DNA from: a virus
Length of the DNA: 64,000 nt
Reading direction: 5' to 3' (one strand)
Virus record (IMG/VR): IMGVR_UViG_3300036985_004624
Shown: one piece after another, positions 35,577 through 35,682 of the stretch
Layout: each line of letters opens with the position of its first letter
How positions within the stretch are numbered: the stretch's first letter is position 1
Translations under genes and position numbers: made by a program
The notes under the pieces: model-generated
The model's input: only the letters and a program-made list of their open reading frames with translations
Databases searched by the model: none
Told to the model about the DNA's origin: nothing

Positions 35577-35682
35577 CAAGATCGCTTTTCTTTTTTACCT
35601 GTGTGCTACCGTTACACTAATAACCCGGAATCGAACCGGTCCACTGGTTTGGCTTTAAGATTTTTATTGCTGAAACGATCTT
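35577..35682 (-). ncRNA. CAGCAA-stem ncRNA copy B, with permuted T-arm/D-arm module
   Basis: AAGATCG-TTTCAGCAA...CCGG-TTCGATT-CCGG-GTTAT-TAGTGTAACGGTAGCAC...CGATCTT. Confidence 0.75.

What the first reader, a model, noticed from the sequence alone, without database searches (positions are those of the whole stretch)
35577..35682. Second, minimised tRNA-elbow mimic (copy B) lacking the acceptor helix
Within copy B a closing helix ACCAGTG/CACAGGT (one A-A mismatch) encloses the T-arm CCGG-TTCGATT-CCGG, a 5-nt linker GTTAT, then TA and the D-arm GTGT-AACGGT-AGCAC. This is the same permuted order as copy E but with the acceptor stem removed. Two differently built copies keep only the T and D loops, implying selection on the elbow (inference). 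Copies B and E also share TTTCAGCAA(A)TAAAAATCTT.
Basis: partly seen in the sequence, partly recalled or inferred. Interest (0 to 1): 0.7.

Follow-up and report, generated by a model that had tools for sequence, protein, structure and literature searches.

The report
Acceptor-less tRNA-mimic phage Y-like RNA
This roughly 105-base stretch of an uncultured giant phage is a real, conserved small structured RNA that keeps only the corner ("elbow") of a transfer RNA. It is mounted on a conserved handle and sits just before the gene for a Ro60-like ring protein, so it is most likely that protein's partner RNA and a stripped-down relative of the tRNA-mimicking bacterial Y RNAs.

Summary
On the minus strand at 35682-35578 a 10-bp terminal helix followed by CAGCAA (the "handle") encloses a tRNA-like core. 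In order, the core is a 5-bp closing helix, a T-arm, a 4-nt linker where the acceptor stem should be, U8-A9, a D-arm, and the other strand of the closing helix.

It is not debris. Nineteen distinct homologues in related phages keep the same layout, with 91% of pair cells paired against 33-42% in slid controls, and 14 of 22 pairs show compensatory changes. The T-loop and the D-loop GG are nearly invariant. The acceptor segment ranges from a 3-6 nt linker (8 sequences) to a 3-8 bp hairpin (11 sequences).

The unit is one of four tandem handle units upstream of a 479-aa protein. That protein's predicted fold matches Ro60 over its whole length (Z 17.3), although its sequence does not. In four of five large or complete relatives' records the best genome-wide match lies beside that gene. 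Mycobacteriophage Lumos carries the same handle and permuted tRNA core beside its Ro-like gene.

Best reading (about 0.6): a Y-RNA analogue of the YrlA type, with a different protein-binding motif and no acceptor stem. Binding, processing and the elbow's partner are untested.

This scan has reported the same RNA family on other DNA, and I tested several of those notes. I found no paper describing it.

The parts
35575..35685 (-). Whole copy-B unit (handle plus tRNA-like core), about 105 nt
   Evidence: Covariance model R1 scores 119 bits here (this sequence is in the seed). Orthologues were found in 18 loci. Sequence read.
35673..35682 (-). Handle helix, 5' strand (pairs with 35578-35587)
   Evidence: 10 bp in this copy. 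Of the 8 modelled pairs, 5 show compensatory changes and 90% of cells are paired.
35667..35672 (-). Conserved single-stranded CAGCAA motif directly 3' of the handle's 5' strand
   Evidence: GCA is invariant and the neighbouring bases nearly so across the family. All five clear units in the window carry it.
35644..35648 (-). Closing (anticodon-stem-like) helix, 5' strand; pairs with 35597-35601 and has one A-A mismatch
   Evidence: 5 pairs, 4 with compensatory changes, 87% paired. A central mismatch recurs in relatives.
35624..35640 (-). T-arm (4 bp plus an A-G mismatch; 7-nt loop of the TTCGA type)
   Evidence: The T-stem covaries at 3 of 5 pairs and 95% of cells are paired.
35620..35623 (-). 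4-nt linker in place of the acceptor stem
   Evidence: Relatives have a 3-6 nt linker (8 sequences) or a 3-8 bp hairpin (11 sequences) at this position.
35603..35619 (-). U8-A9 plus the D-arm (4-bp stem; 7-nt loop with A14, G18 G19, A21)
   Evidence: The D-stem is 96-100% paired and pair 12-23 changes on both sides.
35597..35601 (-). Closing helix, 3' strand
35578..35587 (-). Handle helix, 3' strand, followed by GA
35536..35571 (-). Minimal 36-nt handle unit with no cargo. Its 3' strand ends 2 nt before the AGGAG ribosome-binding site of the Ro60-like gene.
   Evidence: Regex scan. The last handle unit ends 11-17 nt before the ATG in nearly all related loci, and 28 nt before it in three.
35699..35794 (-). 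Third handle unit; its cargo includes a conserved hairpin with GGAGG in the loop
   Evidence: Sub-threshold match to Rfam RF01414 (23 bits).
35868..36117 (-). Fourth, 250-nt handle unit, just downstream of a strong promoter-like site
   Evidence: Short contigs from RNA libraries of three studies lie on it.
34081..35520 (-). 479-aa Ro60-like protein (Pfam DUF2828 + DUF7788), the presumed protein partner
   Evidence: Pfam. AlphaFold model with pLDDT 80. The top 12 Foldseek hits and top 10 VIA-align hits are all Ro60, with Z 17.3 over 386 residues to 1yvp.
30826..30937 (-). Copy E: same handle, same T-then-D order, with a 7-bp acceptor hairpin closed by GAAA
   Evidence: R1 scores 41 bits.
36999..38027 (-). 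ATP-dependent RNA ligase, two genes upstream on the same strand
   Evidence: Pfam PF09414 and PHROG 968. It matches TIGR02306 (DRB0094 type) below that model's cutoff.

Best explanation
Copy B is a small structured RNA of a phage Y-RNA-like family.

Its two ends pair into a short helix that is followed on the 5' side by an unpaired CAGCAA. This 'handle' is shared by at least five units in the window and is inferred to dock the Ro60-like ring protein encoded immediately downstream.

The handle carries a cargo. In copy B the cargo is a tRNA body in the YrlA order (closing helix, T-arm, acceptor position, D-arm) whose acceptor stem has shrunk to a 4-nt linker. Only the T-loop/D-loop elbow stacked on an anticodon-stem-like helix remains.

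The elbow is inferred to be the working surface. It would either recruit a protein or RNA that reads tRNA shape to the Ro-like particle, or present a tRNA look-alike to such a reader. Without an acceptor end it would be invisible to enzymes that need one, such as RNase P, the CCA-adding enzyme, aminoacyl-tRNA synthetases and EF-Tu.

The cargo-less handle that abuts the ribosome-binding site suggests the same protein also represses its own translation.

Shown here: the structure, its conservation and covariation, the Ro60-like fold, and the genomic linkage.

Inferred: protein binding, release as a separate RNA, the identity of the elbow's partner, and autoregulation.
For: 1. Structure. On a MAFFT alignment not fitted to any model, 91.3% of cells pair against 33-42% when partners are slid, and 10 of 22 pairs change on both sides. 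On 19 distinct homologues aligned to the model, 91.3% pair, 14 of 22 pairs change on both sides, and 0 of 500 shuffles reach the covariation score.

2. Elbow residues are kept while the acceptor segment varies from 3 nt to an 8-bp hairpin.

3. The neighbouring protein has a full-length Ro60 fold. VIA-align gives Z 17.3, rmsd 4.2 A and 386 aligned residues to Xenopus Ro bound to RNA. All of the top 10 matches are Ro60, and isolated vWA domains follow at Z about 10.

4. Linkage. All strong model hits are on the gene's strand and mostly within about 1.4 kb upstream of it (the copy-E type lies about 3 kb downstream). In four of five large or complete records (four complete at 363-385 kb, one 212-kb fragment) the best genome-wide hit is the one beside the gene.

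5. The pairing recurs far away. Mycobacteriophage Lumos, whose protein is 34% identical and annotated 'Ro-like RNA binding protein', has three tandem units with a GC-rich, compensated handle plus CAGCAA directly after the gene. The middle unit carries T-arm, 8-bp acceptor hairpin and D-arm (R1 36.9 bits; Rfam YrlA 39.3 bits, below threshold).

6. Modularity. Phage Aeh1 has normal-order, CCA-ending tRNA-shaped genes whose anticodon region holds the same handle circularly permuted.

7. Known precedent. YrlA RNAs lie beside Ro60 genes in bacteria and 22 phages and have the T, acceptor, D order (PMC4201824). Phage phiLo Ro60 binds upstream Y-like RNAs (PMC12135203).

8. An RNA ligase lies two genes upstream, as in the rsr-yrlBA-rtcBA RNA repair operon (PMC7790460).
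Against: - No binding experiment exists for any DUF2828-type protein.
- The protein is Ro60-like only by predicted fold. A sequence profile does not find Ro60 in the PDB (E 2.2) and Pfam TROVE is not hit.
- The canonical Ro-binding motif GNCGAA is absent from copy B.
- The Rfam YrlA model does not match copy B even at E up to 10.
- There is no terminator between the units and the gene, so copy B may never exist as a free RNA.
- The R15-Y48 Levitt pair, kept in 9 of 11 acceptor-bearing members, is kept in only 1 or 2 of the 8 acceptor-less ones. The minimised form may therefore fold less like tRNA than the drawing suggests.
- The pair counts come from an alignment fitted to the model.
Confidence: 0.6

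Rival explanations
1. It is purely a cis-acting part of the 5' leader of the Ro60-like mRNA. The tandem handle units would be operators that stay on the mRNA and control its translation or stability, and the tRNA-like fold would only stabilise the leader.
For: Copy B lies 59 nt before the ATG, with no terminator-like site between it and the gene. One 1755-nt contig from an RNA library spans the gene and all the units. In several relatives the tRNA-like unit itself abuts the ribosome-binding site (L007, L008, L012, L015, L016).
Against: Units with the same handle lie kilobases from the gene among tRNA genes (copy E; L006, L009 and L016 units 2.8-3.7 kb downstream). In Lumos they lie downstream of the gene. 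A -10-like box sits directly before copy B. A stabilising role alone would not require exact conservation of the elbow residues.
Confidence: 0.13
2. It is a tRNA-shape decoy or sponge that works without the Ro60-like protein, for example by soaking up a host nuclease or modification enzyme that reads the tRNA elbow.
For: The elbow residues are the most conserved part of the cargo. The phage invests heavily in tRNA supply and repair, with 7 tRNAs, a tmRNA and an RNA ligase in the window. Earlier notes of this scan describe sister units that carry anticodon-loop copies.
Against: This does not explain the shared handle or its tight, strand-specific linkage to the Ro60-like gene across distant phages. 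Most known tRNA-cutting defence enzymes read the anticodon loop, which copy B lacks (general knowledge).
Confidence: 0.12
3. The elbow has no outside partner. It is a compact, nuclease-resistant fold that caps the RNA, and the only functional part is the handle.
For: Cargo is swappable and sometimes absent, as in the 36-nt leader unit, the 53-nt L016 unit and the 44-nt L023 unit. The acceptor stem and the Levitt pair decay in the minimised lineage. A related strain carries a different 85-nt cargo between the same flanks.
Against: An ordinary hairpin would serve as a cap. Yet G18, G19, T54, C56 and A58 are held nearly fixed over lineages whose stems have turned over completely.
Confidence: 0.1
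4. It is random tRNA debris left by rearrangements in a tRNA-rich, homing-endonuclease-rich region, or a permuted tRNA gene that is processed into a working tRNA.
For: The window does contain a tRNA gene broken by an endonuclease cassette and homing endonuclease genes.
Against: Compensatory changes occur in all four helices. The position and strand are conserved in 18 loci. No other copy of its T- or D-arm exists in the window. It has no acceptor stem and no anticodon arm, so no tRNA can be made from it.
Confidence: 0.03

Closest known systems
YrlA, the tRNA-mimicking Y RNA of bacterial and mycobacteriophage Ro60/Rsr (Rfam RF02553; Chen et al. 2014, PMC4201824; Wang et al. 2018, bioRxiv 10.1101/312249)
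   Same: - Both are encoded beside a Ro60-type gene and on the same strand.
- The ends pair, and the middle holds a T-arm, then the acceptor position, then a D-arm.
- The elbow residues are conserved.
- An RNA repair ligase lies nearby.
- Relatives of copy B and the Lumos unit give sub-threshold YrlA matches of 25-40 bits.
   Different: - The acceptor stem-loop is missing in copy B.
- The presumed protein-binding motif is CAGCAA after a terminal helix, not GNCGAA.
- The protein belongs to the DUF2828 + DUF7788 family, not Pfam TROVE.
- The YrlA model does not match copy B.
- There is no V stem-loop.
Thermus phage phiLo Ro60 with Yrl1 and Yrl2 (PMC12135203)
   Same: It is a phage Ro60-type protein with two or more Y-like RNAs encoded just upstream of its gene. 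Each RNA has a terminal stem next to an unpaired conserved motif. It is among the closest structural matches to the window's protein (9kop and 9l5y).
   Different: The phiLo RNAs use a CGAA motif and the paper describes no tRNA-like domain for them. Binding and a PNPase complex were shown for phiLo. Nothing has been shown here.
Class I RNAs of dictyostelid amoebae (Rfam RF01414; Kjellin et al. 2021, PMC7919456)
   Same: The frame is the same: an AAG start, a 6-bp covarying stem joining the two ends, an unpaired motif ending in CAGCAA next to the 5' strand, a variable interior, and an end of the CUGU type. Phage units score 23-32 bits on RF01414.
   Different: All these scores are below the gathering score of 41.5. 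Class I RNAs are 42-65 nt, eukaryotic, have no described tRNA-like cargo, and their one known direct binder is an RRM protein. Homology is unproven.
Handle-bearing tRNA-shaped genes of T4-like phages (for example the 122-nt 'tRNA-Val' of Aeromonas phage Aeh1)
   Same: They have the same handle and CAGCAA motif and a tRNA-like body, in a phage that also has the Ro60-like gene.
   Different: They are the circular permutation of copy B. The acceptor end is open and ends in CCA, and the handle is closed by a loop in the anticodon region. Copy B has an open handle and no acceptor stem.

Membership tests
YrlA-type Y RNA (Rfam RF02553) | Encoded within about 4 kb of a Ro60 orthologue, on the same strand | tested here: met
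   Copy B ends 59 nt before the start of a protein with a full-length Ro60 fold, on the same strand. The protein is Ro60-like by fold only, not by Pfam TROVE.
YrlA-type Y RNA (Rfam RF02553) | tRNA-like domain in the order T-arm, acceptor stem-loop, D-arm, with conserved elbow residues | tested here: inconclusive
   The order and the elbow residues are met. The acceptor stem-loop is absent in copy B, although 11 of 19 family members have one.
YrlA-type Y RNA (Rfam RF02553) | GNCGAAN0-1G motif near the 5' end (presumed Rsr contact) | tested here: not met
   Not present in the unit. CAGCAA occupies the equivalent position.
YrlA-type Y RNA (Rfam RF02553) | Match to the Rfam covariance model at its gathering score (69 bits) | tested here: not met
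   No match on copy B at E up to 10. Orthologue L021 scores 25.5 bits, L029 40.1 bits and Lumos 39.3 bits.
YrlA-type Y RNA (Rfam RF02553) | Bound by Ro60 in vivo; carries tRNA modifications (pseudouridine 55, dihydrouridine) | not testable with these tools
   Requires immunoprecipitation and modification mapping.
CAGCAA-handle phage RNAs (unnamed; not in Rfam) | Terminal covarying helix of 6-10 bp, CAGCAA or CCGCAA within 0-4 nt of its 5' strand, and variable cargo | tested here: met
   In the related loci about 95 regex hits fall on the gene's strand and 17 on the other.
CAGCAA-handle phage RNAs (unnamed; not in Rfam) | Co-occurrence with a DUF2828-type Ro60-like gene | tested here: met
   Seen in the window, in 23 close IMG/VR loci, in Lumos and in Aeh1. 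The best genome-wide hit lies beside the gene in 4 of 5 large or complete records. Phages that lack the gene were not surveyed.
Dictyostelid Class I RNA (RF01414) | Match at the gathering score; 42-65 nt; dictyostelid promoter element | tested here: not met
   Best phage scores are 23-32 bits against a gathering score of 41.5. Copy B itself gives no match.
tRNA (RF00005) or permuted tRNA gene | Acceptor stem, anticodon arm, and detection by tRNA finders | tested here: not met
   Not called by ARAGORN or Rfam. It has no acceptor stem and no anticodon arm.

The most novel reading that the evidence does not exclude
The acceptor-less form is a purpose-built 'elbow-only' ligand. Selection would have removed everything that acceptor-end enzymes need and kept the T-loop/D-loop corner, so that the Ro60-like particle can dock onto, or compete for, one specific reader of the tRNA elbow during infection. 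Candidates include the specificity domain of RNase P, the ribosomal L1 stalk or E site, or a host defence nuclease.

In addition, the handle family as a whole may be homologous to the dictyostelid Class I RNAs. That would make those unexplained RNAs Y RNAs of a second, unrecognised Ro60-like lineage.
Probability: 0.2. Interest if true: 0.8.

Novelty: new variant of a known kind. Interest (0 to 1): 0.62.

Why it matters
Ro60 and its Y RNAs are conserved from bacteria to humans, yet what the tRNA-like domain of bacterial Y RNAs is for remains unknown.

This family offers a natural deletion series. The same RNA occurs with a 7-8 bp acceptor stem, with a 3-bp stub, and with none, while the elbow stays fixed. 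That points to the elbow, not the acceptor end, as the part under selection, and it gives a minimal construct for pull-downs and structures.

It also ties a large, poorly annotated phage protein family to a partner RNA with a binding motif different from the textbook one. The family is found in 710 cultured phage records, including Felix O1-type, T4-like, Listeria, Campylobacter and mycobacteriophages. Several of these phages grow on laboratory hosts, so the idea is directly testable.

Tried and rejected
- **Rfam.** At gathering thresholds the window gives nothing here. At E up to 10 the only hit in 35300-36400 is a 23-bit Class I match on the neighbouring unit.
- **Sequence searches of the protein against the PDB.** Neither the single sequence nor the profile finds Ro60. 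Only fold comparison does.
- **Literature.** No paper mentions DUF2828 in phages. The supplement of Chen et al. that lists their 22 phages is not held, so I could not check whether Lumos-type phages were among them.
- **T4 rnaC and rnaD.** I tested whether these stable RNAs of unknown function belong to the family. They have no handle and give no model hit, so I rejected the idea.
- **Recent copy of a phage tRNA.** The window holds no second copy of copy B's T- or D-arm.
- **RNA evidence.** Four metatranscriptome runs hold contigs on parts of 35300-36107. They are contigs from RNA libraries that may contain DNA, and they show no ends. No contig at 90% identity or more covers the tRNA-like core at 35576-35661. 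The one bridging contig carries a different 85-nt insert there. This neither shows nor excludes expression of copy B.
- **MAFFT on all 19 units.** It misaligned the acceptor and D region. I therefore seeded the model from the 8 acceptor-less units.
- **First regex scan for handles.** It was too loose and mostly returned noise, so I tightened it (shuffles gave 1-6 hits against 13 observed).
- **Whole genome.** No whole genome is held for the window.
- **Protein atlas.** It only confirmed viral DUF2828 clusters.

Full report
**What is there.** The finding lies on the minus strand of a 680-nt gap between two minus-strand genes. Read 5' to 3', the unit has these parts:

- A 10-bp terminal helix (35682-35673 pairing with 35587-35578).
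- An unpaired CAGCAA directly after the helix's 5' strand (35672-35667).
- An A-rich spacer.
- A 5-bp closing helix with one A-A mismatch (35648-35644 with 35601-35597).
- Three unpaired bases.
- A T-arm (35640-35624) with a canonical seven-base loop.
- A 4-nt linker (35623-35620).
- U8-A9.
- A D-arm (35617-35603) with A14, G18, G19 and A21.
- A second A-rich spacer.

A single-sequence fold recovers the terminal helix, the closing helix and the T-arm (z = -2.0). ARAGORN and Rfam do not call the element.

**It is conserved and it covaries.** A search of IMG/VR with the downstream protein returned 32 loci. Their upstream regions show the same element at the same place.

I seeded a covariance model from a MAFFT alignment of the eight acceptor-less units. 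It found 20 strong matches, 19 of them distinct, all on the gene's strand.

| Alignment | Cells paired | Paired when partners are slid | Pairs changed on both sides |
|---|---|---|---|
| Unfitted MAFFT, 8 units | 91.3% | 33-42% | 10 of 22 |
| Fitted to the model, 19 distinct units | 91.3% | 33-40% | 14 of 22 |

In one search, none of 500 shuffles reached the covariation score. All four helices contribute.

G53, T54, C56, A58 and C61 are invariant, and the D-loop GG is kept in 18 of 19. One lineage (L003/L005) changes G18 and position 55 together.

The acceptor position is a 3-6 nt linker in eight sequences and a 3-8 bp hairpin in eleven. Debris is excluded.

**The element belongs to a larger set.** The window has four tandem units with the same frame upstream of the gene (36117-35868, 35794-35699, 35682-35578 and 35571-35536), plus copy E at 30937-30826. 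The frame is an AAAG start, a covarying helix, CAGCAA, variable cargo, the helix's other strand, then a CUGA or CUUGA end.

The same five classes recur in the relatives, almost always on the gene's strand. The shortest unit has no cargo, and its 3' strand ends two bases before the ribosome-binding site. In nearly all related loci the last handle unit ends 11-17 nt before the start codon. Cargo is exchangeable. L007 carries copy B's cargo in a different handle, and an RNA-library contig from a related strain has a different 85-nt cargo between the same flanks.

**The neighbouring protein.** The 479-aa product matches Pfam DUF2828 and DUF7788 and a PHROG named 'RNA-binding protein'. Sequence searches do not reach Ro60.

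An AlphaFold model built from 19 homologues (pLDDT 80) matches Ro60 structures over its whole length. The top 12 Foldseek hits and the top 10 VIA-align hits are all Ro60. The best is Z 17.3, rmsd 4.2 A and 386 aligned residues to Xenopus Ro bound to RNA, with Thermus phage phiLo Ro60 close behind. Isolated vWA domains follow at Z about 10. The protein therefore has a Ro60-like ring plus vWA architecture, but it is a separate sequence family. tblastn finds it in 710 cultured phage records, and mycobacteriophage annotators already call it 'Ro-like RNA binding protein'.

**Linkage of RNA and protein.**

- In four of five large or complete relatives' records (four complete at 363-385 kb, one 212-kb fragment) the best genome-wide match to the model is the one beside the gene.
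- In mycobacteriophage Lumos (protein 34% identical) three tandem units follow the gene directly. They have a GC-rich, fully compensated handle and CAGCAA. The middle unit carries a T-arm, an 8-bp acceptor hairpin and a D-arm. It scores 36.9 bits on my model and 39.3 bits on Rfam YrlA, which is below the gathering score.
- In Aeromonas phage Aeh1 two tRNA-shaped genes in normal order hold the handle circularly permuted inside the anticodon region. One of them is annotated as a 122-nt tRNA-Val.

The handle is therefore a discrete module that travels with this protein, and the tRNA body is a second module.

**Most likely mechanism.** By analogy with Ro60 and its Y RNAs (PMC4201824, PMC12135203), the handle docks the Ro60-like protein and the cargo provides a second interface.

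In copy B the cargo is reduced to the elbow on an anticodon-stem-like helix. Whatever reads it does not need an acceptor end. RNase P cleavage, CCA addition and aminoacylation, which are possible for the long-stemmed YrlA of M. smegmatis, are excluded here.

The RNA ligase two genes upstream and the tRNA-rich setting fit an RNA repair or tRNA-surveillance role, as proposed for TROVE proteins of jumbo phages (PMC7824862). This part is inference.

The cargo-less handle at the ribosome-binding site suggests autoregulation. That is also inference.

I give this reading about 0.6. The rivals are a purely cis-acting leader, a Ro-independent decoy, and a structural cap with no partner, each at about 0.1. 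Debris is at about 0.03.

**Weak points.**

- No binding data exist.
- The protein's relation to Ro60 rests on a predicted structure.
- There is no terminator between the units and the gene, although promoter-like sites precede units 4 and 3 and a -10-like box precedes copy B.
- The RNA-library contigs show only that the region occurs in such libraries.
- The R15-Y48 Levitt pair is complementary in 9 of 11 acceptor-bearing members but in only 1 or 2 of the 8 acceptor-less ones. The minimised core may be a looser mimic.

**Comparison with known systems.** It works like a YrlA-type Y RNA, but it fails three of that family's defining tests: the GNCGAA motif, the Rfam model, and the acceptor stem-loop. 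Its partner is a different protein family.

The handle frame closely resembles dictyostelid Class I RNAs (AAG start, 6-bp stem, motif ending in CAGCAA, CUGU end; PMC7919456). All Rfam scores are below threshold, however, and homology is open.

I found no paper that describes the handle or links DUF2828-type proteins to RNAs. Earlier notes of this scan describe the same family in this genome and in at least ten others. I re-tested the copy-E architecture, the permuted Aeh1 form and the Ro60-like fold myself.

**Verdict.** It is a new variant of a known kind: a Y RNA with a tRNA-like domain.

Noticed in passing
window 35536-35571 (-): A 36-nt cargo-less handle unit ends two bases before the AGGAG ribosome-binding site of the Ro60-like gene. 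In nearly all related loci the last handle unit ends 11-17 nt before the ATG. This looks like an autoregulatory operator.
   Followed up: partly
window 35723-35739 (-), inside the unit at 35699-35794: A 5-bp hairpin, conserved in many relatives, displays GGAGG (a ribosome-binding-site look-alike) in its 7-nt loop. The same cargo holds two CGAA-containing stretches.
   Followed up: no
window 35868-36117 (-): A 250-nt handle unit starts just after a near-consensus promoter-like site (36165-36137). Short contigs from RNA libraries of three studies lie on it, and a 1755-nt RNA-library contig ends at 36107.
   Followed up: partly
window 30732-30820 (-): An 89-nt tRNA-like gene with a long variable arm, a CCA end and a CGA anticodon-like loop lies directly after copy E. 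ARAGORN and Rfam do not call it at gathering score. The homologous place in L009 gives a 30-bit tRNA-Sec match.
   Followed up: no
window 26965-27750 (-): The two halves of a tRNA gene flank a cassette holding a complete tRNA-Arg(CCT) and an opposite-strand endonuclease-like ORF (27024-27689).
   Followed up: no
L036 (Mycobacterium phage Lumos) 3909-4165: Three tandem CAGCAA-handle units lie directly after the 'Ro-like RNA binding protein' gene and before a terminator-like hairpin. The middle unit is a permuted tRNA mimic. This is a cultured system in which to test the family.
   Followed up: partly
L002 (Aeromonas phage Aeh1) 608-729 and about 770-860, minus strand; L037 (Citrobacter phage Ci1) 4939-5125: Genes annotated as an oversized tRNA-Val or a pseudo-tRNA are tRNA-shaped RNAs. 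Their anticodon region holds the handle in circularly permuted form.
   Followed up: partly
L003/L005/L024/L025, copy-B orthologue (for example L005:2844-2945): D-loop G18 and T-loop position 55 have both changed (GG to AG, and TTC to TGC). This may be a paired change at the G18-pseudouridine 55 tertiary contact. It is seen in one lineage only.
   Followed up: no
family alignment: A non-standard pair (A-A or A-C) recurs in the middle of the closing helix. The 15-48 Levitt pair covaries (G-C or A-U) in acceptor-bearing members but not in acceptor-less ones.
   Followed up: partly
window 52711-53172 (-): A two-piece (permuted) tmRNA gene is called both by ARAGORN and by two Rfam models.
   Followed up: no
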